From a virus: a stretch of 39,780 nt of DNA. Location: UHGV virus genome UHGV-1378608; one strand, 5' to 3'. The stretch's first letter is position 1. Each line of letters begins with the position of its first letter. Positions 2,048 to 32,899 of this stretch are shown in pieces. The position numbers and the translations under genes are program-made. The notes below the pieces were generated by a model. It searched no databases. It worked only from the letters and a program-made list of their open reading frames with translations, and was not told where the DNA came from.

Positions 2048-4792
2048 TTAACCTTTAGAAAAAACAGACAGTAACGGAAGTGTAAAAGTCGACACACCAG
2101 TATTCATCATGCAGGTTTTACCACCTGAGTATCCAGATATGGTTTGCGAAACTGGACTTCCTGTTGTTGGGAAAATGGTGATTTCATCCCCCCCCTTCAA
2201 TACTCTAACTTTGCCTGTAACATCAACCGATGAACTTGAAACAGACGTGAGAGATCCATTGGTCATTGTATAAAAGTTTATAGTTCCTGTTGCTGTTCTG
2301 CTTACACCACATCCTGATTTTTGCTTCTGTTTATAGTTAAACAATACCAGCAGGCCAACAGGCATTGACTCAAGCTCAACTGCTGTAGACTGGTAGGTCT
2401 TACTGCCGTTTCTCATGTCAGGAGCCTCATCATCTGGATCAGAAAAATTATACCCAAGAGTTAAATCATTAACCGTGGCATTATTCCCTGTTATTCCTTT
2501 GACTTGATTAACACTTAACGGTATGTAATTAAACCCTGCAAAAAGCGGTGTTAACTTTTCTCTAAATAAAAGGCCTGGTGGGTATACTAACGAAGGTGTA
2601 CCATCATATGTCACTGAGATAATATTAAGTCCCTTTTTAAGGGTTCCAATGCACGTTGTTTGTTTGCCTGTAAATGATGTTAGCCCATTGCTGGCAACTT
2701 TACCTGATAGATAAGAAGAGTTCCTGATGTCATTGAGAATGACATTGAACTGGTTAACACGATCTGATGAAGTATAAGTTGGGTTATATGGCTCAAATAA
2801 TGTTACAGAGATATCGCTTGTATCACTCCATACAAAATACCGACAAATAACATTTTCATTTGAAGGCGTAATCCTTCCCCATCCACCAAGTGCATCAAGA
2901 TAATCACCTCCACTTAATATCGAAATTGATGGGTAGTATCTGGTATTTGAAGGGTATCCAATACCAATAAATGAAAGTTGCGTAGTAGGGATTAGGTTCT
3001 TATTTTTTACAGCTGTATAAACGCGCTCTTTTAATACCTCTTTTGCAGCATAAGCACCGATGTATGCATGTCCTATCGTTGATGGATGGCTCTGGTCAAA
3101 GACAGTACCGCCGTCACGTTTGGCAACATCAGATATAGAGTACGCGCCTATATCTGCATAAGCGTCAGTCGTGGCAATGGACAAATCCAAAAACTCGACC
3201 TTTGGGAAAAGGCGTTCGATACGCTTCTTAATGGCTGACTCCAGGAAAGCCTTTGGCGCATCGTTATTGTTTACAGTAACAAAGCATATCGGACAACCAT
3301 ATCCCCATGATTTTCTAATCAACTTTTCAAACTCATGAAAATACGCTTCAAATCCTATTGTTGGAAGTATTCCATTGTCATTAAAACCAAGGCTTATAAA
3401 AAGAACATCAGGAGCTTTTTTTCCATACGCAGCATTCTGGAAAAATCCATAGTCGAAGTTTTCATAACCCCAACCTGTCGCAAGTGACTTGCCAGACGAT
3501 CCGCAGTTATATGCTTTAAAAATATTATCCGTGCTGTCGGATAGCATATTGAGGCAATCAGTAAAAATTCTGAACCATGAATGCTTACCGCCATTTAAAT
3601 TATGATTGTAGTTGGTAGAGTTAAGATTTCCATCGCTACCAGTCGGGTTCGGGGTCCATCCTGAACTATAGGCTCCATCCGTTATAGAATCACCAATGAT
3701 ACCTACATGGCAATCTTCTACAGTTGATGGGTAACCCTGCTTATTTGCAAATTTAGCAATTGTTCCAAGAGCAGTAAAATCAGGGCCATTGTTAGATAGC
3801 CCAACATCAAAAACATGCTCATTACCCCATTTGTCTCTTGTGAGAATTTTACCTTCTCCAAGAAATTTAGTCACATCATCTGACGGTAAAAAATTACACC
3901 TGATGGTTACATCTTTTGGGATGTAAATCTGACCAGGGAAAGCATAAATTGCACTTCTGTTGTCAGTTGTCGTGTTAATAACGACATTTGGAACATAAAA
4001 TATTGACGTTGCGTCAGTTCTATATTGTCCGTTAACAAGCTCAGATCTGAGAACCGCATCCCCAACACCTCTCCAAGCGCCAGGACCAACACCACCAGTA
4101 GTGGTAGGAGTTGATCCTGGAGGAACTACTTTGGGCAGTGGCCCGTCCCATCTGTAGTATTCGCCGTTGCTTTCCCAGAGAAGAACATCGTTAAGATAGA
4201 TGATGGTATTACCCAACTCAAAAGATTTCTTCGTGTTATAGCCATACAATCCATTTTCTAAGGTTTCAATAATGGTGCTAAGTATGGTACTAAATTTTGC
4301 ATAAAGATCATCAGTATATTTTTTTGTAGCAGCATCTTGGGGAAGAGATGGATCACGAAGATTTCTAATATAATTTGAAAGCGCGTCATAAAAAATTGCT
4401 ACGTCATTTGGCTTTCTTAAAGCCAACTTATCATTTCTTAATGATTGTTGAATGAGCATAGTAAGTTTATCAAACGCATCCTCATGTACCTCAGCGAAGA
4501 ACTTACCCTGATTACGTAAATCCGTTTCCTGAGTAGCTGGTAGTTCTCGTGATATAGATATCTGATGACCGTTAGCCAACGCCTTCGAGAGAATTACATT
4601 ACCGCCGTTATATCCTCCAGCCCCGGTAACTGTGTAATCAGTATCAAGAGCCAGCACAGCGATATTTTCGTCAAGGTCAACCACCTGTACTACCAGATCA
4701 GATTTATTGAAAACCCTAAAGGTGTACGGAAATGATGTCGTAACGCCGTTACCTGTGTATTCGTTGTGGTCAACTTCGGTTGAGACCGTCAT
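2048..4792 (-). CDS. Tailspike/tail fibre protein with internal SGNH(GDSL)-type esterase domain
   Basis: 914 aa; N-terminal ~120 aa resembles the conserved podovirus tail-fibre anchor domain (NEYTGNGVTTSFPYTF...TDYTVT...AEVHEDAFDKLTMLIQ); residues ~360-585 carry SGNH blocks GIIGDSITDG, FISLGFNDNG and DQSHPS (Ser and Asp/His of catalytic triad). Confidence 0.8.
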   Translation of the reverse strand: MTVSTEVDHNEYTGNGVTTSFPYTFRVFNKSDLVVQVVDLDENIAVLALDTDYTVTGAGGYNGGNVILSKALANGHQISISRELPATQETDLRNQGKFFAEVHEDAFDKLTMLIQQSLRNDKLALRKPNDVAIFYDALSNYIRNLRDPSLPQDAATKKYTDDLYAKFSTILSTIIETLENGLYGYNTKKSFELGNTIIYLNDVLLWESNGEYYRWDGPLPKVVPPGSTPTTTGGVGPGAWRGVGDAVLRSELVNGQYRTDATSIFYVPNVVINTTTDNRSAIYAFPGQIYIPKDVTIRCNFLPSDDVTKFLGEGKILTRDKWGNEHVFDVGLSNNGPDFTALGTIAKFANKQGYPSTVEDCHVGIIGDSITDGAYSSGWTPNPTGSDGNLNSTNYNHNLNGGKHSWFRIFTDCLNMLSDSTDNIFKAYNCGSSGKSLATGWGYENFDYGFFQNAAYGKKAPDVLFISLGFNDNGILPTIGFEAYFHEFEKLIRKSWGYGCPICFVTVNNNDAPKAFLESAIKKRIERLFPKVEFLDLSIATTDAYADIGAYSISDVAKRDGGTVFDQSHPSTIGHAYIGAYAAKEVLKERVYTAVKNKNLIPTTQLSFIGIGYPSNTRYYPSISILSGGDYLDALGGWGRITPSNENVICRYFVWSDTSDISVTLFEPYNPTYTSSDRVNQFNVILNDIRNSSYLSGKVASNGLTSFTGKQTTCIGTLKKGLNIISVTYDGTPSLVYPPGLLFREKLTPLFAGFNYIPLSVNQVKGITGNNATVNDLTLGYNFSDPDDEAPDMRNGSKTYQSTAVELESMPVGLLVLFNYKQKQKSGCGVSRTATGTINFYTMTNGSLTSVSSSSVDVTGKVRVLKGGDEITIFPTTGSPVSQTISGYSGGKTCMMNTGVSTFTLPLLSVFSKG

Positions 4793-4896
4793 GTTAAATC
4801 TCCAGATAGTCGCAGCACCCGTTGCGCCGCATATCTGGTTATTCTATTACCAGAAAAACCATATATGGATATATAGCTCATGAATACGAACAGATA

Positions 4897-4911
4897 TTAC
4901 CTTTCAGGTGA
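4897..4911 (+). promoter_or_regulatory. Operator-like palindrome TTACCTTTCAGGTGA (TTACCT-N4-GGTAA family, 1 mismatch)
   Basis: Member of a recurring inverted-repeat motif; lies about 40 bp upstream of the LexA box. Confidence 0.4.
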
Positions 4912-4948
4912 TTCGCAAAACGTGCTGGATAGCAAACAAATTATTTGC

Positions 4949-4968
4949 TACTGTATATTTATACAGTT
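4949..4968 (+). promoter_or_regulatory. LexA (SOS) box TACTGTATATTTATACAGTT
   Basis: Perfect CTGT-N8-ACAG with AT-rich centre, near-identical to the E. coli consensus TACTGTATATATATACAGTA; 20 bp upstream of the ATG at 4988, with GGAGA RBS at 4975-4979. Confidence 0.75.
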
Positions 4969-4987
4969 ATTGCTTGGAGAAGATAAG

Positions 4988-5245
4988 ATGCAGCAGTATC
5001 ACTATCCACTGGAAGACGGATTTACCGAAAGGATTCACACGCCGGGAGGCGTCAGGTCACTGGTGGAGGGATCGCACTTGATGAAATTACTCCGGGCTCT
5101 CGATAAGGATGGATTTAATGTCGATGGCCCACTTGCCGAACTGACTGCACTGATTAACTACGTCACCAGCTCACAGATGTCTATGCAGGATCTGCAAACA
5201 CATCTCGACTATTGTGCCGAACAATTACGAAAACAAATCAGGTAA
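4988..5245 (+). CDS. Small LexA-controlled moron protein (85 aa), candidate SOS-inducible antirepressor
   Basis: In-frame internal ATG of ORF 4880-5245 preceded by RBS and LexA box; the ORF-track start at 4880 would place the LexA box and RBS inside coding sequence. No confident family match by eye. Confidence 0.5.
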   Translation: MQQYHYPLEDGFTERIHTPGGVRSLVEGSHLMKLLRALDKDGFNVDGPLAELTALINYVTSSQMSMQDLQTHLDYCAEQLRKQIR

Positions 5246-5269: not shown

Positions 5270-5281
5270 GTGACATGTCAC
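5270..5281. repeat. Perfect 12-bp palindrome GTGACATGTCAC (copy 1 of 3; 14-bp TGTGACATGTCACA here)
   Basis: Exact palindrome recurring at 22503-22514 and 25578-25589, each in an intergenic position. Confidence 0.6.
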
Positions 5282-19227: not shown

Positions 19228-19520
19228 TCCTGTTCACTGGCCTCTTTGGCCATCTTCAAATACTGTTCAGGGCAATGCGCCATAACGCGCTGAAACAGTT
19301 CCAGCGCCAGATTGCGTTGCCCCTCATTAAATGCCATTGCCATAGCGTCCATCGGCGAGATAGCGGAAAACACACGGCCTTTCTCCAGTACCGACCAGAC
19401 AACCCGACGCCCCTGTTCACAGCTCATGACAAAGCGAATGTCATCAATTTCACGCTGTGCCATGTCACGTTGCTTACGGGCGTTTTCTTCTTTCAGTTGA
19501 TCGTCTTCGTAATCTGTCAT
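19224..19520 (-). CDS. Hypothetical head protein (98 aa)
   Basis: Translationally coupled between portal and scaffold genes. Confidence 0.4.
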   Translation of the reverse strand: MTDYEDDQLKEENARKQRDMAQREIDDIRFVMSCEQGRRVVWSVLEKGRVFSAISPMDAMAMAFNEGQRNLALELFQRVMAHCPEQYLKMAKEASEQE

Positions 19521-21196
19521 TGTGATTGCCCACCCTGACCACTAACTGCATTCGCCATAGCTGACAAAACACTCGGATCCGAAGTTTTAGCTTCGCTTAG
19601 CGTCTTGGCCCCCTGTGCCGCCGCCATCCCCATCGCCATCATTTGTTGCTGCTGTTGCTGCTGTGCCCGTTGCTGGCGAGCCTGCTCAACCTGTTCCTGC
19701 GGAACAATGACGGTTGGAGACACTCCGGACATATCAGCGAATGCATCGATCGCCTGATCAACGTTGAGTTTGTCGAGAGCTTCTGGTTTCGCTTGCGCAA
19801 GTTGACCAATGAAGTTAACCGTGGACGCCAGACTGGACAGGCCGATAGACTTCTGCGCCTGAGCCATGACGGAAATGTATTCGACCTTCAGGGGCATGCC
19901 TTCCATCGCGTCAGGCGGTGGCGGCAGCATGTTTTTACGCACCATCATCGAGAAAGCGCGATCAATGAGAGGATTAAGACATTCGTCGTTCAGACGCTCC
20001 AGAACCGGCCCCAACATCAGAAGTTTTTCTTCTTTCATTTCGATCACCGCTTCAACAGGCATCGAGCGGGTATTGATGTTCTGCAACATCATGAACAGAT
20101 CGACAAAGTAGGCGCTGTTAATGATTTGGCGAGTGTCCTGAATGTCTGCCACCAGATCTGCTGTACTGGGGTTAACCAGATAAGCAGGCCTGAAACCATC
20201 CTGACCAGTAATCTGATCGATATACGTGATGTCGCCAGGAAGAAGGGAGGCGCGCTGATTCTTGAGGGAAGTCGGAGCAACCATCGGCGGATTGGTGGCT
20301 TTATCAATCAACTGCGACTTGCGCTTCTGGAGAAGCTGCAATGCCTTAACAGGTCCAAGCGCCAGCATACCCGGGCATGATGATCCATAAACATCTTCGC
20401 CGTTAACTTCCCAGCGCGGAGCCATAATTGGAAACTCATCGAATCCGGACTCACGCAACAACTTGTCGTTATCGCCACCAACCTCGTAATAAACCGATTT
20501 GAATGGCTTGTTCTTGCTATCCAGCTTCGATGTATCGCGGTCAATGTTCGGGTAAACCGAATGCATCACTTCGATCCACTTCTCGTAGGTGCCGCTTTCC
20601 CACATGCTTTTTACGGATTCGCTGACGTTATTTAGCCCGAACTCCTGAACAAGCTGACGAACAGTCATAGAGAACTTGCGAAAACAGGTGTCAACACTGC
20701 CACGAGGTGAGTTAGCCAGGTAGTAACTGCCTATCGGGAATGGCATTGTGCGAATGATGTCCTCATCATCCTCCAGTACCGCCATTGCACCGGTGCTGTA
20801 TGTGCCGAGGCTTCCGTATAACTGCGGCAGCGACTGATAGAGATTCGACTTATTGAACATATCGTTCATGCGGTTCTGCACCGCCTCAAGCCACAACTTA
20901 ACAGGGCCATAATCCATCATTTCAGGATCTGGCGTAGCCAGGCGAAACCACGGACGCGCGGGGCTTGTGATGCCTGACATCATGCCGCTGGCGAGAGTGC
21001 GCGCCGCCATAGTCCCGGTCGAATCAATAATGCGTGTATTGCGTCGATCGTTACGGTTGACCTCAGAAGTCAGAAAGCGGGAACCACGCGGGTTGATGTA
21101 ATCACTCAACTCGCGCCAGTGCGGCTCGAACGACTGACGCTCGCTTTCAAGTTGTGCGAACTGTTTGTTCAATCGCTCTTTAGTTGTTTCCGCCAT
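19517..21196 (-). CDS. Portal (head-to-tail connector) protein, 559 aa
   Basis: Size and position after terminase; Gln/Ala-rich C-terminus. Confidence 0.65.
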   Translation of the reverse strand: MAETTKERLNKQFAQLESERQSFEPHWRELSDYINPRGSRFLTSEVNRNDRRNTRIIDSTGTMAARTLASGMMSGITSPARPWFRLATPDPEMMDYGPVKLWLEAVQNRMNDMFNKSNLYQSLPQLYGSLGTYSTGAMAVLEDDEDIIRTMPFPIGSYYLANSPRGSVDTCFRKFSMTVRQLVQEFGLNNVSESVKSMWESGTYEKWIEVMHSVYPNIDRDTSKLDSKNKPFKSVYYEVGGDNDKLLRESGFDEFPIMAPRWEVNGEDVYGSSCPGMLALGPVKALQLLQKRKSQLIDKATNPPMVAPTSLKNQRASLLPGDITYIDQITGQDGFRPAYLVNPSTADLVADIQDTRQIINSAYFVDLFMMLQNINTRSMPVEAVIEMKEEKLLMLGPVLERLNDECLNPLIDRAFSMMVRKNMLPPPPDAMEGMPLKVEYISVMAQAQKSIGLSSLASTVNFIGQLAQAKPEALDKLNVDQAIDAFADMSGVSPTVIVPQEQVEQARQQRAQQQQQQQMMAMGMAAAQGAKTLSEAKTSDPSVLSAMANAVSGQGGQSQ

Positions 21197-21210
21197 TTCA
21201 ATGACTCCGG

Positions 21211-21417
21211 TTACTGACCAAGCAGCGTTTTACCGCTGGTATTAGCAGTTGATGTGTCGCCCTGAGAACCGGTAAGCAGCGTAGAACTACGACCAGCAGC
21301 AGCGCGACGGCGACGTGTTTCTTCGTCGCGGGCATCAACAACGGCGGCATCCTGCTCCTGTGGTGCTGCCTGAACTTCTGGTGTTGCAGGCACTGATGGT
21401 GAGCTACCCATGCACAT
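21211..21417 (-). CDS. Small hypothetical protein (68 aa)
   Basis: ORF immediately upstream of portal; Ala/Arg-rich; uncertain whether expressed. Confidence 0.3.
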   Translation of the reverse strand: MCMGSSPSVPATPEVQAAPQEQDAAVVDARDEETRRRRAAAGRSSTLLTGSQGDTSTANTSGKTLLGQ

Positions 21418-21507
21418 ATCAATGACTCCGTACGCAATTAAATTATTACCAATTTAACCATATATGATTTATTTATCGTAGGTAGTTGACATTTAACGCA
21501 CAAATTA

Positions 21508-21522
21508 TTACCTTTAAGGTAA
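21508..21522 (+). promoter_or_regulatory. Operator-like palindrome TTACCTTTAAGGTAA
   Basis: Perfect TTACCT-N4-GGTAA site in the non-coding gap between the late genes and the tRNA; a TTGACA hexamer lies at 21486-21491. Confidence 0.45.
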
Positions 21523-21845
21523 GCAAAGGGTTCATTCCGGTTATTAACCTGACTGGCTTGTCGTTAAATTGAACAGGTGGAGTGAGCTTTTATTTTGAGC
21601 AGTACGGCGTATGGCACATGCGCCGATAGCGGTATGGATACGTTTAAGGGGCACCCTCCCTTGCTCGGGCAAACGAACCAGGTAGCCGGAATGTGCAAGT
21701 CGAGCGGTTTTATTCCGCGCACGGGGATTCACCATCCCGGCGATTCGGTGTGACGCCTCGGAAGAGACGAGGGTACAACGATGAGAGCATTTATGGAGCT
21801 GCGACAAAGTGTGGCGCACTTAACAGGCTAAGTGCTCTCAGCGTT

Positions 21846-21922
21846 GTGGCATTAGCTCAGTTGGACAGAGCAACCGCCTTCTAAGCGGTTGGTCGCAGGT
21901 TCGAATCCTGCATGCCACGCCA
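21846..21922 (+). tRNA. tRNA-Arg, anticodon UCU
   Basis: 77 nt; acceptor stem GTGGCAT/ATGCCAC, D-arm GCTC-AGTTGGACA-GAGC, anticodon stem ACCGC/GCGGT with loop CTTCTAA, T-arm GCAGG-TTCGAAT-CCTGC, discriminator G and encoded CCA. Confidence 0.85.
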
Positions 21923-21965
21923 GAATCACGCCTAAGGACCGTGATGCCAGAAGTTCCAGGGGCTT

Positions 21966-22008
21966 GGCGGTGATGGTTTCCCTTGAAGGACTATCACCGC
22001 CCTTTTTA
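21966..22008 (+). terminator. Terminator-like hairpin downstream of tRNA
   Basis: 9-bp perfect stem ggcggtgat/atcaccgcc followed by CTTTTTA. Confidence 0.5.
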
Positions 22009-22085
22009 CAGCAGGACGCCATTGCGATGACTTCATGCTGTAAACCAGTACAGCCACGGAAGGCATAACTCATTGCTTCCAGTTT

Positions 22086-22109
22086 GCCCGGTTCGCCGGG
22101 CATTTTTTT
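22086..22109 (+). terminator. Rho-independent terminator (GC stem, TTCG tetraloop, T7 run)
   Basis: gcccgg-ttcg-ccgggc followed by ATTTTTTTA; ends 11 nt before the RBS and ATG of the next gene. Confidence 0.6.
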
Positions 22110-22120
22110 AAGGTGAGATT

Positions 22121-22498
22121 ATGAACGACCAGCAAATCGAAAAAGAAATCATTGAGAAAGGCAAAACGGCACCGCGAATCACCCCGCAGCACATCGAAGA
22201 CGTGATTATTAGTGAGCACTATTTCACGGCTGCAGAAGGGGTTCATGGCGCTAATGAGCTTTTAAAACCGCATGAAAGCCCAATTGACTATTACCAGGAA
22301 GCGCACCCTGCTGAGTCACTTCTGACCTTCTGCGTTCTGGTGCTGCGCAACGGATTTACTGTAACCGGAGAAAGCGCCTGTGCAAGCCATGAAAACTTTG
22401 ATGCAGAAATTGGTCGGAAGATTGCCCGGCAGAATGCTGTAAACAAAATCTGGATGCTCGAAGGTTACTTGCTGAAGCAGAAGCTAAGCGAGCAATAA
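22121..22498 (+). CDS. Gp49-like phage protein (125 aa), moron
   Basis: Motifs ITPQHIEDVI, HYFTAAEGV and FTVTGESACASHENFDAEIGRKIAR match my recollection of the phage Gp49/66 family; RBS aaggtgag. Confidence 0.55.
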   Translation: MNDQQIEKEIIEKGKTAPRITPQHIEDVIISEHYFTAAEGVHGANELLKPHESPIDYYQEAHPAESLLTFCVLVLRNGFTVTGESACASHENFDAEIGRKIARQNAVNKIWMLEGYLLKQKLSEQ

Positions 22499-22502
22499 CA
22501 CC

Positions 22503-22514
22503 GTGACATGTCAC
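22503..22514. repeat. Perfect 12-bp palindrome GTGACATGTCAC (copy 2 of 3)
   Basis: Exact repeat of the palindrome at 5270 and 25578; 5 bp after the stop of the Gp49-like gene. Confidence 0.6.
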
Positions 22515-22612
22515 AAACAGCCGGCCGATGAGCTGGCTTTGTTTTATCCTCATCAGAGGATATCAACGACATTATCCCCTCATAGGGATACGTTTTTCAT
22601 AATGACCGAAGA

Positions 22613-22627
22613 TTACCTTAAAGGTAG
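22613..22627 (+). promoter_or_regulatory. Operator-like palindrome TTACCTTAAAGGTAG (1 mismatch)
   Basis: TTACCT-N4-GGTAA family member about 30 bp upstream of the 22658 ATG. Confidence 0.4.
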
Positions 22628-22657
22628 AATCAGAAAAAAACCTAAAAGGGCCTGGAC

Positions 22658-23398
22658 ATGCTTGAATCACTTAAAGAATACCTATCTTCAACCGTTAATA
22701 CCGCTGCGCAAAGGGTCAGAAATCCAGTGTTTGGAGCGTTCGCACTGTCATGGTGCGCCTTTAACTGGAAGTCGATTTTATACTTACTCCTCAGCGACTC
22801 CAGCATCATCGACAAGATCACCTACATTTCCAGCAATAGCAGTTGGAAAACGGTATTAGCATTCCCATGTGTTTCAGCAATAATCCTGTGCGGCGGCATG
22901 CCCTGGATCAACAACGTGATTTCAAAGTGGCAAGCCAAACCTCTTGATAATTACGATTCGATAGAGAACCACCGGAAGGCCAAGCGCATTCATCGCGCCA
23001 CACGCCTGCAGCGCCTGAAGGCAAAGCACGATGTGACATACGACAAAGTTAAGACTGGCGCCGAAAAGGACATACAGGCTATGAAGGAAAGAATTACGGA
23101 GTCACAGGCCAGGATGGGTGAGCTAACGTCGGAAAGAGATAGGCTCTCCGATAAGGTTTTGGAATTGAATAAGAAGCTGGAAAACATGCAATCAGTGGCT
23201 GCAGCGTTAAAGATTGAGGCAGAAAAGTCCGCCAGAATGCTTGAAGATAGGGAGGCCAAAATAAATAATCTCATACAAGAATTAAAGGAAAAAGAAAAGG
23301 AAAGTATCGTATTGCATATGGGCCATGAACCCTTGCGAAAAACATATACATCACAGGCTGAGAGAATGATTGCTGAAGCCGTGAAAAATAAGCAATAA
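22658..23398 (+). CDS. Membrane-anchored coiled-coil protein (246 aa), moron of unknown function
   Basis: N-terminal hydrophobic segments, then a long charged heptad-like region; visibly AT-rich coding sequence; opposite strand to flanking late genes. Confidence 0.5.
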   Translation: MLESLKEYLSSTVNTAAQRVRNPVFGAFALSWCAFNWKSILYLLLSDSSIIDKITYISSNSSWKTVLAFPCVSAIILCGGMPWINNVISKWQAKPLDNYDSIENHRKAKRIHRATRLQRLKAKHDVTYDKVKTGAEKDIQAMKERITESQARMGELTSERDRLSDKVLELNKKLENMQSVAAALKIEAEKSARMLEDREAKINNLIQELKEKEKESIVLHMGHEPLRKTYTSQAERMIAEAVKNKQ

Positions 23399-23399
23399 A

Positions 23400-24875
23400 T
23401 CACGCAAACGGGTCGTAATCTGTGATGGCCTTGCCTTGCTGGTTCTGCTGACCGGGAATTCGCAGGCGCTTCGACACAGGGAAAGCAAACGTCAGCAATA
23501 GCGCATCGCCTTTCCCCGGCGAACGCCCAAGTCGTTCTTTGATATCTTCCTTCGGTTCGATAACGATTTTACCGTCCACGCGAACTTTGTACTCTGCCGT
23601 CGACAGGTCGTCCGCTGTTTCCTGGTCATCCAGCATACCGCCCAGCCTCAGCCATGTCTTACATGAGTTGAACATCTCCCCACGCTTGTTGAGCATCTGC
23701 GGGTCAGTAGACGCGCCACCGAACGGAACAAGTTGCCATGTCCTGCCCCAGCCGTCACCGATGGACTTCAGCCCGGTGCCGTAACCGAAGTCGATGAACA
23801 CCGCGTCAGCCTGGTACTGGTCTTCAAAGTCGGCGATTCGCTTAGCCATAATCAAATCGTCGGTGGTCTTGTTGCCGGTCCAGAGCACTTTGCTGTGCAG
23901 CCCCTGCCGCAGGTATATCACCGCGTCATCAACTCCGGAATACGCCGGGTCGACGCCGATAATCACAGGAGCGTGAGCAACCTGCCCGGCGGTAACCACC
24001 CGCTTCATGGCCTCGTCTGTAAGGCCTGTTGGGATAAACTGGAGTTCTGACGCGTCAGGGAAGATCCCCCGCACGCGGACCTTCACGAAGTCGCTGTCTT
24101 CCCCGTAGTCATCAACCCATTTCTGCAACTGCTGTTTGTTAGTGCCTTCCACCGTCCGGCTGTCAATCTGCGCAGTTTTCCAGCGGTGTTTATATTTGCG
24201 GAAACATTCGCGGAAACGCCCGGTATTACGCGTCGGGTTCCCGAACGCCACCCAGATGATTTCGGTGTCTTCGTCCGTAAGCGCACCCTCAGCAACTTCC
24301 CACACCAGATCCGCAATGTTCGACGCTTCATCGAATACCACGATGATGCGTTTGCGCTCGTTGTGTAGTCCGGCGAATGCCTCAGTGTTGTGCTCAGACC
24401 AGGGTATTGCGTCAGCCCGCCACCGCTTGTCGTGCCCAGGATCATTGCTGTACATCGCGGTAGCGGTACAGGTAAACCAGTCTTTCGTGATGGCAAGGTT
24501 CGACCACTTGATAATTTCCGGCCAGGTCTTCGTTCGTAGCTGGTTGTCGGTGTTGGCGGTCACCACGACCTTACAATCCTCGCAAGTGGACATGCCCCAG
24601 TTGATCAGCATTGAGATGAATGCGGATTTACCAATACCGTGACCAGAAGCGCGTGCCAGCATAAGCGGCTGATAGCGCGTCTCTGGATTCTGCAGGTGAT
24701 CACGTATCTCTCGGAACGCATCGGCCTGCCACTGACGTGGACCGGTGGCATGTGCCAGTTCAGTACCCTCTTCCCCCCACGGGAACGCATAGAGGGCATA
24801 GCCAAGCGGATCGTGAGTGAACCCTGCAATATCCTCGATCAACTGCTCTTCAGGAGATAACGCTGTATCTGTCAC
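23400..24875 (-). CDS. Terminase large subunit
   Basis: 491 aa; Walker A-like LARASGHGIGKS, ATPase N-half and nuclease C-half with conserved acidic residues; follows small subunit with overlap. Confidence 0.85.
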   Translation of the reverse strand: MTDTALSPEEQLIEDIAGFTHDPLGYALYAFPWGEEGTELAHATGPRQWQADAFREIRDHLQNPETRYQPLMLARASGHGIGKSAFISMLINWGMSTCEDCKVVVTANTDNQLRTKTWPEIIKWSNLAITKDWFTCTATAMYSNDPGHDKRWRADAIPWSEHNTEAFAGLHNERKRIIVVFDEASNIADLVWEVAEGALTDEDTEIIWVAFGNPTRNTGRFRECFRKYKHRWKTAQIDSRTVEGTNKQQLQKWVDDYGEDSDFVKVRVRGIFPDASELQFIPTGLTDEAMKRVVTAGQVAHAPVIIGVDPAYSGVDDAVIYLRQGLHSKVLWTGNKTTDDLIMAKRIADFEDQYQADAVFIDFGYGTGLKSIGDGWGRTWQLVPFGGASTDPQMLNKRGEMFNSCKTWLRLGGMLDDQETADDLSTAEYKVRVDGKIVIEPKEDIKERLGRSPGKGDALLLTFAFPVSKRLRIPGQQNQQGKAITDYDPFA

Positions 24876-25468
24876 TGATTACCATCCTGACGTTCTTTGA
24901 GTCGCTTCCTGGCTGCTGCTATGCGATCAGCAATTGTCACATTCACATTAACATCCAGGCGTTCTTTGAATGCGTTGACGTCGACGTGCTTACCAATCAG
25001 TTCTAGGTTCTTCACCTTGTCAGGCCATTTAATTTTTTTGAGGATTGTCTCTATCGAGTCCTCGTTCATGTTCATGATGGTCGATGACAGATCAAAGCCG
25101 CTAAGCGTAGTGCGCCATATTTTCGGCCACTCGCGGATTGGCTTAAGACTCCCATCGTCGTTGAGGATATCAATCACGTCCATCTGGTCGATCTCCACCA
25201 GGCGCATGAGAACGTAATCAGCACTGACGCGCATTCGTTTGTTGCGCTCCTCCATCAACTCGGCAATCCGTTTTTTAATGCGTTCATCACGCATCATGAC
25301 ACTGGCTTTAACTGCCGCTGTATTTGGGGAGAATCCTGCGTTAATCGCTGCCTGAGTCTGGTTTTCAGGCGTTTTGATGTATGACTGGCAATAAGCCTCC
25401 TGCATTGCTGTTAGTGGCTTAAATTGCGTTGATTTGCGTTTATAGGTTTTAGGTTCAGCAGACATCAT
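24872..25468 (-). CDS. Terminase small subunit
   Basis: Likely start at MMSAEP (25468) with GGTGG RBS; the ORF-track N-terminal extension to 25546 runs through a terminator hairpin and direct repeats and is probably not coding. Confidence 0.7.
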   Translation of the reverse strand: MMSAEPKTYKRKSTQFKPLTAMQEAYCQSYIKTPENQTQAAINAGFSPNTAAVKASVMMRDERIKKRIAELMEERNKRMRVSADYVLMRLVEIDQMDVIDILNDDGSLKPIREWPKIWRTTLSGFDLSSTIMNMNEDSIETILKKIKWPDKVKNLELIGKHVDVNAFKERLDVNVNVTIADRIAAARKRLKERQDGNQ

Positions 25469-25475
25469 AACCACC

Positions 25476-25509
25476 GTGGTAATAGTTACCGTTGTGGTAA
25501 TAGTACCAT
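25476..25509 (-). promoter_or_regulatory. Tandem direct repeats GTGGTAATAGT(T)ACC x2 immediately upstream of the terminase small subunit (candidate late promoter/activator site)
   Basis: Two adjacent copies, each also an inverted arrangement GGTAA-TAG-TTACC, between the terminator and the TerS start. Confidence 0.35.
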
Positions 25510-25510
25510 G

Positions 25511-25537
25511 CAAAATAAAGCCGCCATAGTTGGCGGC
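25511..25537 (-). terminator. Rho-independent terminator separating the early-left operon from the packaging genes (minus strand)
   Basis: Stem gccgcca/tggcggc with 4-nt loop, followed on the minus strand by TTTATTTTG. Confidence 0.55.
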
Positions 25538-25577
25538 AGTATTCAAAACCCATCAAATTCATCATGCATAATCTAAT

Positions 25578-25589
25578 CGTGACATGTCA
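25578..25589. repeat. Perfect 12-bp palindrome GTGACATGTCAC (copy 3 of 3)
   Basis: Overlaps the stop codon of the 113-aa Cys-rich gene, about 110 bp upstream of the TerS start. Confidence 0.6.
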
Positions 25590-25928
25590 CACTATTAATT
25601 TCGTTTCATGCCAGCCTTTAGTCACCCAGCATTGCAAGTCACCATTACACGGACATGAATTAACTGGAACTCTCTCGCCGCACTTACCGCAACATTTTCT
25701 GCTGATCGATTTTATACGCCCGCGCACGCGTGCATCATCCTGGCGGATCAGTAACGCTATATACTCACCAAATTCGTAAGGCGCACGCCCGGGGCGACGC
25801 GTGGCACAGTTACGCTCCAGCATTTCAATTTCCTGAGCATCAAGCACAATTTCCAGCTTACGCACACCAGATGCAGCTTGTCTGGCTCTCTGAGCGGCTT
25901 TGCGCTCTGCTGCTGATTTAGCCATCAA
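25587..25928 (-). CDS. Cys-rich (zinc-ribbon-like) basic protein, 113 aa; candidate late-gene regulator
   Basis: Basic helical N-half and C-terminal CCGKCGERVPVNSCPCNGDLQC; last gene before the late operon. Confidence 0.4.
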   Translation of the reverse strand: MMAKSAAERKAAQRARQAASGVRKLEIVLDAQEIEMLERNCATRRPGRAPYEFGEYIALLIRQDDARVRGRIKSISRKCCGKCGERVPVNSCPCNGDLQCWVTKGWHETKLIV

Positions 25929-32314: not shown

Positions 32315-32899
32315 ATGAAAAGTATCCAGGACGTCCGCAGGCAAAATCTCAACGACTTGATCGACCGTGAATTCAATGGTGTTCAGACGCGGATGGCAGA
32401 AAAACTTGGAACTCAGGCAAATCTGGTAAACCGCTGGGCTCTTGGCAAGAAGGTTATCGGCGACCAGGTTGCGCGAAAAATTGAAGCTGCCGCCAATAAA
32501 CCACGTAACTGGCTTGATATCGATCGCTCGCTTTCTCAGGAAGGTTTTCAGCCTGTCGGCCCGAGCGATATAGGTCAGCTGGCGGCTCACAACCTGGAAC
32601 GCTGGATGAGCGAAAGCCGCGACCTTTCAACACAGGGAAAACTTCACCGCGCATCCGGCGTCGCCCAGGTGACAATCAGCCGCCTGTTAAACAATGAAGT
32701 CAGCGTTTCCATTTCCACCCTGGAGAATGTTGCATCCGCATTCGGGCGTCACGGCTATGAATTACTGATTCACCCGCACGACCCTGCGACTATCAACTAT
32801 GATCGCTCGCGCTACGCATTGTTACCTGAAACAGAGAAGGCAAAGATCGAAAGTTACATTGAATTTGTCATCAACCAGAACGAAAAAAGCAAACAATAA
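32315..32899 (+). CDS. Phage repressor candidate, tandem XRE-type HTH, no recognisable S24 peptidase domain
   Basis: 194 aa; two HTH-like segments (VQTRMAEKLGTQANLVNRW and GVAQVTISRLLNNEVSVSISTLENVASAF); transcribed from the OR-like region toward the OL-like region, as lambda cI is. Confidence 0.55.
   Translation: MKSIQDVRRQNLNDLIDREFNGVQTRMAEKLGTQANLVNRWALGKKVIGDQVARKIEAAANKPRNWLDIDRSLSQEGFQPVGPSDIGQLAAHNLERWMSESRDLSTQGKLHRASGVAQVTISRLLNNEVSVSISTLENVASAFGRHGYELLIHPHDPATINYDRSRYALLPETEKAKIESYIEFVINQNEKSKQ

What the first reader, a model, noticed from the sequence alone, without database searches (positions are those of the whole stretch)
21438..23398. Plus-strand moron island splitting the late operon between terminase and portal: tRNA-Arg(UCU), Gp49-like gene and a membrane-anchored coiled-coil protein
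About 2 kb of opposite-strand cargo interrupts the otherwise contiguous minus-strand late operon. It contains a tRNA reading the rare AGA codon, a Gp49-like protein and a 246-aa protein with N-terminal hydrophobic helices and a long charged coiled coil encoded by conspicuously AT-rich DNA. The island is preceded by an operator-like palindrome and the two protein genes are separated by the GTGACATGTCAC palindrome and a second operator-like site. A membrane-anchored coiled-coil protein in a lysogen-expressed moron is a reasonable candidate for superinfection exclusion or abortive-infection function, but nothing in the sequence identifies a known defence family.
Basis: inference. Interest (0 to 1): 0.65.

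Follow-up and report, generated by a model that had tools for sequence, protein, structure and literature searches.

The report
Repressor-controlled accessory-gene hotspot in a prophage
The opposite-strand island is real, but it looks like a repressor-controlled early unit (a new structured leader RNA, a tRNA, and an anti-CBASS sponge gene) followed by a separately acquired gene for an uncharacterised membrane-anchored coiled-coil protein, rather than cargo expressed in the lysogen.

Summary
A plus-strand island (21438-23398) lies between portal and terminase of a phiV10/epsilon15-like (Uetakevirus) prophage. It holds tRNA-Arg(UCU), a PF13876 gene and a 246-aa gene.

Three things change the interpretation.

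1. PF13876 is now the Acb4 anti-CBASS sponge family, so the "Gp49-like" gene is a counter-defence gene.
2. The "operator-like" palindromes match TTACC-N5-GGTAA. The motif has 14 copies in the window against 0.6 expected, clustered at the cI/cro region. One copy overlaps the island promoter. Another lies in the 17-nt spacer of the 246-aa gene's own promoter. This geometry predicts silencing in the lysogen, not expression.
3. The tRNA leader is a conserved pseudoknotted RNA of about 180 nt that is absent from Rfam. It occurs in 1840 of 5426 complete E. coli genomes, in P1/P7, and at the pL position of lambdoid phages where no N gene is annotated. I propose it is a put-like antiterminator.

The slot is a true hotspot. 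In 79 of 80 relatives it holds at most one real cargo gene, or none; only this window has Acb4 plus the 246-aa gene.

The 246-aa family (PHROG 4780) has no Pfam, PDB, PADLOC or fold match. It was found only in temperate or chronic phages. Its function is unresolved; I favour exclusion or abortive infection at the membrane.

The parts
21486..21522 (+). Island promoter: -35 TTGACA (21486-21491), then after 16 nt the operator TTACCTTTAAGGTAA (21508-21522), which covers the -10/+1 region
   Evidence: Perfect match to the operator consensus. TTGAC and ATTACCTTTNAGGTAA are invariant in the E. coli, Salmonella, Klebsiella and Citrobacter relatives. The -10 (TACCTT) is weak, so the promoter assignment is an inference.
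21601..21778 (+). Core of a conserved pseudoknotted leader RNA, absent from Rfam 15
   Evidence: Covariance model hit of 140.6 bits. 91.5% of cells paired against at most 42% in slid controls; covariation 0.195 against 0.099, 0 of 500 shuffles. No Rfam hit. Present in 1840 of 5426 E. coli genomes and never annotated.
21779..21845 (+). Long closing hairpin of the leader (CAACGATGAGAGCA ... TGCTCTCAGCGTTG) abutting the tRNA
   Evidence: The two arms co-vary between relatives: GATGAGAGC/GCTCTCAGC against GGTAAGAGC/GCTCTTTCC (read from the sequences).
21846..21922 (+). tRNA-Arg, anticodon UCU
   Evidence: ARAGORN; Rfam RF00005 73.3 bits. AGA codons are concentrated in the tailspike (16 of 29 Arg) and in the 246-aa gene (5 of 15).
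21966..22109 (+). Two intrinsic-terminator-like hairpins (21966-22001 and 22085-22102, each followed by a T run) flanking an inverted repeat (22005-22044)
   Evidence: The second terminator plus an RBS directly precedes the cargo gene in nearly all relatives.
22121..22498 (+). Acb4-family (PF13876) gene, a putative cyclic-dinucleotide sponge; it has no promoter of its own
   Evidence: PF13876 at 121.6 bits against a cutoff of 27. Direct hit to SPO1 Acb4, PDB 9E4W, E 0.007. PF13876 = Acb4 according to bioRxiv 10.1101/2024.12.30.630793 and 10.1101/2025.07.12.664507.
22503..22545 (.). GTGACATGTCAC palindrome (22503-22514) followed by a terminator hairpin (22519-22538 plus T run), probably bidirectional
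   Evidence: phiV10 annotates the same hairpin as a terminator on the late strand.
22602..22630 (+). Cassette promoter: -35 ATGACC, 17-nt spacer holding operator TTACCTTAAAGGTAG (22613-22627), -10 TAGAAT
   Evidence: promoter scan; operator. The same geometry is conserved upstream of homologues in EC.W1-9, BUCT711, Citrobacter L091 and L072. One half-site has decayed in two lambdoid hosts while the -10 is kept.
22658..23398 (+). 246-aa protein: N-terminal amphipathic helix, two hydrophobic helices, basic juxtamembrane helix, long coiled coil (PHROG 4780, function unknown)
   Evidence: The stretch from about 22585 to 23399 is an insertion relative to phiV10.
32315..32899 (+). Prophage repressor (two HTH motifs), the presumed binder of the TTACC-N5-GGTAA operators; it lies outside the finding but controls it
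   Evidence: 99% identical to phiV10 p40. Pfam HTH_3. The ZX5 ORF21 repressor, reported as identical in sequence to the phiV10 one, blocks the lytic cycle when overexpressed (PMC9782041). Three operator copies lie in the adjacent cI/cro intergenic region.

Best explanation
The region is the accessory-gene hotspot of a phiV10-like temperate phage. It is built as two transcription units, both controlled by the prophage repressor.

Unit 1:
- A TTGACA promoter overlapped by a repressor operator.
- A conserved pseudoknotted leader RNA of about 180 nt plus a long hairpin.
- tRNA-Arg(UCU).
- Two intrinsic terminators.
- An Acb4-family anti-CBASS sponge gene that has only an RBS and no promoter.
- A further terminator.

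I infer that the repressor (32315-32899) keeps this unit off in the lysogen and that it fires on infection or induction. I also infer that the leader RNA acts in cis on RNA polymerase, like HK022 put RNA, so that transcription reads through the terminators into the cargo gene.

Unit 2 is a separately acquired insertion of about 810 bp. It carries its own sigma-70 promoter with the same operator in the spacer. It encodes an inner-membrane-anchored protein (N-in, C-in hairpin) with a cytoplasmic coiled coil.

This protein family has a conserved N-terminal module of about 160 residues and a hypervariable coiled-coil tail. It travels as a solitary, counter-oriented gene in temperate and filamentous phages. 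My best guess is that it acts at the membrane against competing phages, by exclusion or abortive infection. That would resemble SieB in architecture but not in ancestry. I expect expression to be low in the lysogen and to rise on derepression.

Shown: the anatomy, the family assignments, the operator enrichment and geometry, the RNA structure and its distribution, and the hotspot variability.

Inferred: who binds the operator, silencing in the lysogen, antitermination by the leader, and the function of the 246-aa protein.
For: Operators:
- TTACC-N5-GGTAA has 14 copies with at most 1 mismatch against 0.59 expected.
- Two scanned copies plus a weaker one seen by eye lie between the repressor gene and a divergent cro-like ORF. 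Two flank a TTGACA promoter after the repressor's terminator. Others lie upstream of int, by the antirepressor-region ORF, in tandem before terS, and at 21508 and 22613.
- phiV10 shows the same pattern (14 copies against 1.3 expected).
- The repressor is 99% identical to phiV10 p40. Its ZX5 counterpart, reported as identical in sequence to p40, blocks the lytic cycle when overexpressed.

Promoter geometry:
- The arrangement -35 / 17 nt with operator / -10 is conserved upstream of cassette homologues in five Uetakevirus-type contexts.
- One half-site is degraded in two lambdoid hosts that have other repressors.

Acb4.

Hotspot:
- Among 80 loci with TerL at least 98% identical, the cargo is Acb4 in 37, phrog_4846 in 19, the 246-aa family in 15, phrog_27507 in 5, phrog_3163 in 2, and none in 4.
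- Only the window holds Acb4 together with the 246-aa gene.
- Acb4 and the other promoter-less cargo genes start directly after the terminator plus RBS.

Leader RNA:
- Structure and covariation are supported.
- It is one of 37 sequence clusters.
- It lies about 35-45 nt downstream of a pL-like promoter in cdtI, and 150-160 nt downstream of the repressor gene in two Stx-phage relatives. In all three no N gene is annotated.
- It lies in the C1-controlled ban operon of P7.

246-aa family:
- 204 close and about 1700 distant relatives.
- Mean pairwise identity 0.79 for residues 1-160 against 0.20 for the tail.
- Always solitary and counter-oriented.
- Only 5 carriers were found among 50,697 phage genomes, all temperate or chronic.
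Against: - No experiment or transcript data were available. Binding of the repressor to these sites is inferred from location only.
- In phiV10 an operator also lies 40 nt upstream of oac, a gene that must be expressed in lysogens. So the presence of an operator does not by itself prove silencing.
- A single operator with one mismatch may repress only partly.
- The island promoter's -10 is weak.
- The leader RNA has no detectable similarity to the HK022 or HK639 put RNAs. About 40% of its copies have no tRNA nearby, and no read-through assay exists.
- For the 246-aa protein, sharing a slot with an anti-defence gene argues for counter-defence as much as for defence.
- In lambdoid prophages the operator is decayed, so there the gene may be constitutive.
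- The first hydrophobic helix is only marginally hydrophobic.
Confidence: 0.5

Rival explanations
1. The island is a lysogen-expressed moron, and the 246-aa membrane coiled-coil protein constitutively protects the lysogen by superinfection exclusion or abortive infection.
For: - The gene is solitary, counter-oriented and has its own promoter.
- The family was found only in temperate, induced-prophage and filamentous phages.
- In two lambdoid hosts the operator has decayed while the promoter is kept, so there it is probably constitutive.
- The membrane anchor and hypervariable tail fit a conflict protein.
- phiV10 oac shows that a gene with a nearby operator can be lysogen-expressed.
Against: - In every Uetakevirus context the operator sits intact in the promoter spacer.
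- The same operator marks the integrase and antirepressor-region promoters, which must be off in a stable lysogen.
- There is no match to any PADLOC model beyond coiled-coil noise.
- There is no homology to SieB.
Confidence: 0.25
2. The 246-aa protein is a counter-defence or host-takeover factor used by the phage itself early in lytic growth, for example by neutralising a membrane-bound defence effector or sensor. On this view the whole slot is an anti-defence island.
For: - It occupies exactly the slot that Acb4 occupies in relatives, and in 14 of 15 carriers it is there instead of Acb4.
- Its promoter is repressor-operated in the same way as the phage's other transcription-unit boundaries.
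- The conserved juxtamembrane region (residues 96-160, nearly invariant across genera) suggests a conserved host partner.
Against: - It was not found in any virulent phage among 50,697 genomes, whereas Acb4 occurs in virulent phages such as SPO1.
- None of the other slot cargos has a known anti-defence relative.
- It persists in lambdoid prophages with a decayed operator.
Confidence: 0.15
3. The leader is not an antiterminator. It is a stable small RNA released by tRNA processing (regulatory or decoy RNA), or simply a processing or stability element for the tRNA. The cargo genes are then expressed only by leaky read-through.
For: - 75 of 144 distinct copies are followed by tRNA-Arg at a fixed distance of about 65 nt.
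- The covariance model finds no relation to put RNAs.
- The two pseudoknots and invariant loops would equally fit a protein- or ligand-binding RNA.
Against: - 60 of 144 copies have no tRNA nearby.
- In lambdoid phages it heads the leftward early operon directly after the pL-like promoter, where N or put act in other phages, and no N gene is annotated.
- Promoter-less cargo genes sit behind two terminators.
Confidence: 0.3

Closest known systems
Acb4 (anti-CBASS 4) sponge family, Pfam PF13876 (founder: Bacillus phage SPO1 Acb4, PDB 9E4W)
   Same: The 125-aa gene scores 121.6 bits on PF13876. It aligns directly to SPO1 Acb4 over the beta-sheet core and helix alpha4, keeping the ENF-x-EIGR motif and the contacts F48, F62 and I66.
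   Different: It has an N-terminal extension of about 30 residues. Several ligand contacts differ (E49->T, Y57->A, T70->I). Ligand binding and tetramer formation were not tested here.
SieB of lambda and P22 (superinfection exclusion / abortive infection)
   Same: Lambda sieB is a solitary gene on the opposite strand to its flanking PL-operon genes in the record, as the 246-aa gene is to its neighbours. From my own knowledge, not tested here: SieB has two N-terminal hydrophobic helices and a cytoplasmic C-terminal part.
   Different: No sequence or profile similarity (hhalign probability 1.8%; no PF14163 hit). The 246-aa family has a long, variable coiled coil, and in Uetakeviruses its promoter is operator-controlled.
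put antiterminator RNAs of HK022 and HK639
   Same: The leader lies just downstream of a repressor-controlled early promoter in phages where no N gene is annotated. It is followed by terminators that must be read through. It is a structured RNA with invariant loops.
   Different: It is about 180 nt with two pseudoknots, against about 70 nt (HK022) to about 126 nt (HK639 annotation). There is no BLAST or covariance-model similarity. It is also found in P1/P7 and in podoviruses. Its activity is untested.
Phage P1/P7 C1-controlled ban operon (scattered C1 operators; tRNAs under repressor control)
   Same: A repressor operator sits in front of tRNA genes and accessory genes, and many operators are scattered over the genome. 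The same leader RNA lies in the P7 ban operon between tRNA-Ile and ban.
   Different: The operator sequence and the repressor are different, and here the cargo is a counter-defence gene.
Morons / accessory-gene hotspots of temperate phages
   Same: The cassette is an insertion between genes that are adjacent in relatives. It has its own promoter, lower GC and a rare-codon bias (9 of 15 Arg codons are AGA or AGG), and it occurs in unrelated phage backbones.
   Different: The promoter carries the resident repressor's operator. There is no terminator of its own: the gene ends one base from the convergent TerL stop codon.

Membership tests
Acb4 / PF13876 | Match to the family HMM above Pfam's gathering score | tested here: met
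   121.6 bits against a cutoff of 27, E 2e-35, covering profile positions 1-82 of 82.
Acb4 / PF13876 | Conservation of the cyclic-dinucleotide contact residues of SPO1 Acb4 | tested here: inconclusive
   Mapped through the alignment onto the residues listed. F48, F62 and I66 are kept and N63->D (a backbone contact). E49->T, Y57->A and T70->I differ. K36 and K81 lie outside the aligned stretch.
Acb4 / PF13876 | Homotetramer that binds 3'3'-cGAMP and blocks CBASS | not testable with these tools
   Needs EMSA or SEC-MALS and CBASS plaque assays.
SieB (PF14163) | Sequence or profile similarity to lambda/P22 SieB | tested here: not met
   No Pfam hit at E <= 0.1. hhalign of the family alignment against lambda SieB gives probability 1.8%.
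Known anti-phage defence proteins (PADLOC-DB 2.0) | Significant match to any defence-system model outside the coiled coil | tested here: not met
   Only weak hits (at most 17.6 bits) of residues 94-241 to the coiled-coil parts of LmuB, JetC and PbeC. NCBIfam gives only SMC/Rad50 coiled-coil noise.
Any solved or predicted fold | Structural match of the 246-aa model | tested here: not met
put-type processive antiterminator RNA | Location in the leader just downstream of an early, repressor-controlled promoter, with terminators downstream | tested here: met
   Window: operator at 21508, RNA from 21601, terminators at 21966, 22085 and 22519. cdtI and two Stx-phage relatives: downstream of the repressor gene, with the pL-like promoter read in cdtI.
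put-type processive antiterminator RNA | Sequence or structure similarity to HK022 putL/putR or the HK639 putL-like RNA | tested here: not met
   No BLAST match in HK022. The covariance model finds nothing in HK022 or HK639 at E <= 1.
put-type processive antiterminator RNA | Cis-acting suppression of termination | not testable with these tools
   Needs a read-through reporter or in vitro transcription.
Moron (independent transcription unit inserted in a phage operon) | Absent from close relatives at the same junction; own promoter; deviant composition | tested here: met
   About 810 bp are absent from phiV10. Only 5 of 5426 complete E. coli genomes carry it. It has a promoter at 22602-22630, GC 44.8%, and 9 of 15 Arg codons are AGA or AGG.
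Moron (independent transcription unit inserted in a phage operon) | Expression from the repressed prophage | tested here: inconclusive
   An operator in the promoter spacer predicts repression. No expression data were available.

The most novel reading that the evidence does not exclude
The leader at 21601-21845 may be the founding example of a new, very common class of pseudoknotted cis-acting RNA. On this reading it makes RNA polymerase termination-resistant, like put RNA but unrelated to it in sequence. It would be used by Uetakeviruses, by P1-like phages, and by a large group of lambdoid prophages where no N gene is annotated. Here it would drive a promoter-less, exchangeable counter-defence cargo slot through two terminators. 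The 246-aa gene would then be one member of a set of swappable conflict genes that plug into this repressor-gated slot.
Probability: 0.3. Interest if true: 0.85.

Novelty: new variant of a known kind. Interest (0 to 1): 0.66.

Why it matters
- It recasts a 'moron' as a repressor-gated slot. Such a slot would deliver a tRNA and one exchangeable conflict gene at the moment of infection or induction. That is a testable design for how temperate phages deploy counter-defence genes such as Acb4.
- It defines the operator set of phiV10/epsilon15-type phages, which are used for O157 typing and detection.
- It exposes a structured RNA present in about a third of complete E. coli genomes that no annotation or Rfam model covers. 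Its position suggests RNA-mediated antitermination well beyond HK022.
- It singles out a large, unstudied family of membrane-anchored coiled-coil proteins confined to temperate and filamentous phages, as a candidate for exclusion assays.

Tried and rejected
- Pfam, NCBIfam, PADLOC and PHROGs scans of the 246-aa protein gave only coiled-coil noise or 'unknown function'. Pfam on ten distant homologues gave nothing.
- PDB sequence searches with the full family profile and with the N-terminal profile gave noise only.
- A profile search with the N-terminal domain alone in the word-indexed database returned only fragments.
- Lambda SieB homology was rejected.
- The idea that the leader is an HK022/HK639 put RNA was rejected at the sequence and covariance-model level.
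- Rfam found nothing in the island except the tRNA. A weak RyhB-like hit at 22055-22109 is just the terminator.
- Literature searches for PHROG numbers, protein accessions, put-like RNAs and coiled-coil exclusion proteins found nothing relevant. King et al. 2011 on HK639 could not be read.
- The other slot cargos have no Pfam or PDB relatives. The 'anti-defence island' idea therefore rests on Acb4 alone.
- The minus-strand ORFs over the tRNA (21852-22103, annotated in phiV10 as p04) and over the leader are treated as spurious.
Full report
**1. What is there**

The window is a phiV10/epsilon15-like (Uetakevirus) prophage. Megablast of 21198-23399 finds phiV10, ZX5, the O157 typing phages and others at 96-98% identity, but only over the first 1380 bases or so.

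On the minus strand lie TerS (24872-25546), TerL (23400-24875), a 68-aa epsilon15p03-like gene (21211-21417) and the portal (19517-21196; PF12236, E 1.6e-187).

Between TerL and the 68-aa gene, on the plus strand, lie three features:
- tRNA-Arg(UCU) at 21846-21922;
- a 125-aa PF13876 gene at 22121-22498;
- a 246-aa ORF at 22658-23398.

GC falls from about 52-56% in the flanking late genes to 44.8% in the 246-aa gene, and to 41% in its last 300 nt. The window mean is 49.1%.

**2. The 'Gp49-like' gene is an Acb4-family gene**

PF13876 (Phage_gp49_66) was shown in 2024-2025 to be the Acb4 family of anti-CBASS sponges. These are tetramers that sequester 3'3'-cGAMP and related signals. All eight homologues tested bound cGAMP, and those from phages of Gram-negative hosts also bound cAA (bioRxiv 10.1101/2024.12.30.630793; PF13876 = Acb4 is also used in 10.1101/2025.07.12.664507).

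The window protein hits the SPO1 Acb4 crystal-structure sequence (9E4W) directly (E 0.007). The alignment runs across the beta-sheet core and helix alpha4.
- Kept: F48, F62, I66 and the EIGR motif.
- Changed: E49, Y57 and T70.

Family membership is therefore firm, but ligand specificity is open.

**3. The slot is a genuine hotspot**

I compared 80 loci whose TerL is at least 98% identical to the window's. The TerL-portal interval ranges from 1044 to 2206 bases. Its cargo after the tRNA is as follows:

| Cargo | Loci |
|---|---|
| Acb4 | 37 |
| 140-aa phrog_4846 protein | 19 |
| 246-aa family | 15 |
| phrog_27507 | 5 |
| phrog_3163 | 2 |
| none | 4 |

- One locus (L044) holds two of these genes, so the counts sum to more than 80. 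Only the window combines Acb4 with the 246-aa gene.
- Salmonella SPN9TCW holds yet another gene in this slot.
- None of the other cargos has a Pfam or PDB relative.
- Relative to phiV10, the 246-aa gene is an insertion of about 810 bp. It lies between a hairpin (22573-22590) and the TerL stop codon.
- Only 5 of 5426 complete E. coli genomes carry it.

**4. The palindromes are the phage's operators**

TTACC-N5-GGTAA occurs 14 times in the window with at most 1 mismatch, against 0.59 expected. In phiV10 it occurs 14 times against 1.3 expected. The copies lie as follows:
- two scanned copies, plus a weaker third seen by eye, between the repressor gene (32315-32899) and a divergent cro-like ORF;
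- two around a TTGACA promoter after the repressor's terminator;
- two between the replication genes and the next operon;
- two in tandem just before the real start of terS;
- one 45 nt upstream of int;
- one by the counter-oriented ORF next to the tailspike (the antirepressor region in phiV10);
- one at 21508 and one at 22613.

The repressor has two HTH motifs and is 99% identical to phiV10 p40. The ZX5 repressor, which the authors report as identical in sequence to phiV10's, blocks the lytic cycle when overexpressed (PMC9782041). That this protein binds the palindrome is an inference from location.

At 21508 the operator starts 16 nt after a TTGACA box and covers the -10/+1 region. TTGAC and ATTACCTTTNAGGTAA are invariant across the E. 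coli, Salmonella, Klebsiella and Citrobacter relatives.

At 22613 the operator fills the 17-nt spacer of a promoter: ATGACC, 17 nt, TAGAAT. The same layout recurs upstream of cassette homologues in EC.W1-9, BUCT711, a Citrobacter prophage and L072. In two lambdoid hosts with other repressors, one half-site has decayed while the -35 and -10 are kept. A third non-Uetakevirus host still has the palindrome.

An operator in the spacer is a repression geometry. I therefore expect both units to be off, or low, in the lysogen. One caveat: phiV10 also has a copy 40 nt upstream of oac, which is expressed in lysogens. Presence alone is therefore not proof.

**5. A structured leader RNA**

Between the operator and the tRNA lie blocks that are conserved across genera and separated by indels. 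The same element, at about 80% identity, is found in several other settings:
- in the lambdoid cdtI phage and two Stx-phage relatives, 120-160 nt downstream of the repressor gene;
- in cdtI, about 35-45 nt after a TTGACA-17-TAATGT promoter, heading a leftward operon in which no N-like gene is annotated;
- in the C1-controlled ban operon of P7, between tRNA-Ile and ban;
- in Klebsiella, Salmonella, Citrobacter and Stenotrophomonas phages.

It occurs in 1840 of 5426 complete E. coli genomes, at 2474 places, and is never annotated. Rfam 15 finds nothing there.

I aligned 22 diverse copies (A6). A hand-drawn structure with four helices and two loop-to-strand pseudoknots pairs 91.5% of cells, against at most 42% when partners are slid. 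The covariation score is 0.195 against 0.099, reached by 0 of 500 shuffles. One of the four helices (the 129-144 hairpin) was drawn one column off and pairs poorly in that count; RNAalifold's register for it is better. Compensatory changes occur in four places:
- the first hairpin (G-C to A-U in 8 sequences);
- the second helix;
- the CACC/GGUG pseudoknot (3 sequences);
- the GAAGAGA hairpin (three pairs).

The GCACAU/AUGUGC pairing is invariant, so it can be neither confirmed nor refuted.

A covariance model finds one copy each in the window (21601-21778, 140.6 bits), phiV10, cdtI and P7. It finds none in HK022, HK639 or lambda.

Of 144 distinct copies, 75 are followed by tRNA-Arg at about 65 nt, and 60 have no tRNA nearby.

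Acb4 and the other promoter-less cargo genes begin directly after two terminator-like hairpins (21966-22001 and 22085-22102 plus T runs). The same RNA heads early operons where no N gene is annotated. I therefore propose a put-like, cis-acting antiterminator. This is an inference; the main rival is a processed small RNA.

**6. The 246-aa protein**

*Sequence features.* The protein consists of these parts:
- an amphipathic N-terminal helix;
- two hydrophobic helices (24-46, marginal; 63-85, clear);
- a very basic stretch (residues 89-130, net charge +7), which by the positive-inside rule places the C-terminus in the cytoplasm;
- a long helix over residues 134-223.

*Family.* It is PHROG 4780, function unknown.
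- 204 close relatives, all unnamed Enterobacteriaceae proteins.
- About 1700 cluster representatives at E <= 0.001, and 269 at E <= 1e-10.
- Lengths of 200-514 aa, with no fused domain.
- R19, W32, N36 and P70 are invariant in distant members.
- Residues 1-160 average 79% pairwise identity; the tail averages 20%.

*Context.* The gene is always solitary and counter-oriented. It occurs in three kinds of place:
- the Uetakevirus slot;
- between the replication and ninB genes of lambdoid prophages;
- the variable region of a Vibrio filamentous phage.

Four tblastn queries against 50,697 phage genomes found five carriers, all temperate or chronic.

*Matches.* No known defence, exclusion or structural family matches.

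*Codon use.* Nine of its 15 Arg codons are AGA or AGG. The other heavy AGA user in the window is the tailspike, with 16 of 29 Arg codons.

**7. Verdict**

The region is best described as a repressor-gated accessory slot:
- a leader RNA, a tRNA and one exchangeable gene, here the counter-defence gene Acb4;
- plus an additional, self-promoted and operator-controlled cassette of unknown function.

For the 246-aa protein I favour a membrane-level exclusion or abortive role. Its restriction to temperate phages, its membrane anchor, its hypervariable tail and its SieB-like layout all point that way. A counter-defence or host-takeover role is not excluded.

The most novel element is the leader RNA.

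Noticed in passing
window 21601-21845: A conserved pseudoknotted leader RNA upstream of the tRNA. It is absent from Rfam 15, unannotated, and present in 1840 of 5426 complete E. coli genomes. It also occurs in P1/P7 (ban operon) and at the pL position of lambdoid phages where no N gene is annotated. It is a candidate new antiterminator RNA.
   Followed up: yes
window 5270-5281, 22503-22514, 25579-25590: The perfect palindrome GTGACATGTCAC occurs exactly three times (0.11 expected). Each copy lies next to a terminator hairpin at the end of a transcription unit. In phiV10 it occurs at 2262 and 19493. It could be the binding site of a second regulator or part of bidirectional terminators.
   Followed up: partly
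window 25468-25500: Two tandem operator copies (TAACCACCGTGGTAA tag TTACCGTTGTGGTAA) lie inside the annotated 5' end of terS. The odd N-terminus 'TITTTVTITTVV' of the 224-aa ORF is probably untranslated, and the real start is probably MMSAEPK (as annotated in EC.W1-9).
   Followed up: partly
window 4880-5245 (+), operator at 4897-4911: A second counter-oriented unit inside the late region, next to the tailspike (the Bro-N antirepressor region in phiV10), also carries the operator. All plus-strand insertions in the minus-strand late region are therefore operator-marked.
   Followed up: partly
window 22005-22109; L004 about 3300-3450: An inverted repeat (22005-22044) plus the terminator 22085-22109 form a conserved block between the tRNA and the cargo. 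A recognisable, partly decayed copy lies upstream of the cassette in the lambdoid phage KO-TP1, so the cassette moved together with this flank. It could encode a small RNA. The only Rfam signal is a weak RyhB-like hit that I attribute to the terminator.
   Followed up: no
window 2048-4792 (-): The tailspike gene is 40% GC and uses AGA for 16 of its 29 Arg codons, whereas head and terminase genes use none. This is a plausible reason for the phage to carry tRNA-Arg(UCU).
   Followed up: partly
L005/L006 (E. coli UTME-9 prophage and an IMG/VR contig): The closest carriers of the 246-aa gene (99.6% identical) lack Acb4 and have a short unrelated sequence in its place. The window's Acb4 plus cassette arrangement therefore looks like a recombinant of two slot types.
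   Followed up: partly
L010, L019, L049, L096 (slot cargos in relatives): The alternative slot genes have no Pfam or PDB relatives: phrog_4846 (140 aa), phrog_27507 (about 110 aa), phrog_3163 (115 aa, repeat-rich, with a faint bactofilin-like hit) and a 138-aa protein with a hydrophobic N-terminal stretch in SPN9TCW. They are untested candidates for conflict genes delivered by the same slot.
   Followed up: partly
L091 5269-6005 (Citrobacter prophage): In this relative the tRNA region downstream of the leader aligns poorly with the window's tRNA-Arg and seems to hold a different or additional tRNA-like sequence. I did not run a tRNA scan on it.
   Followed up: no
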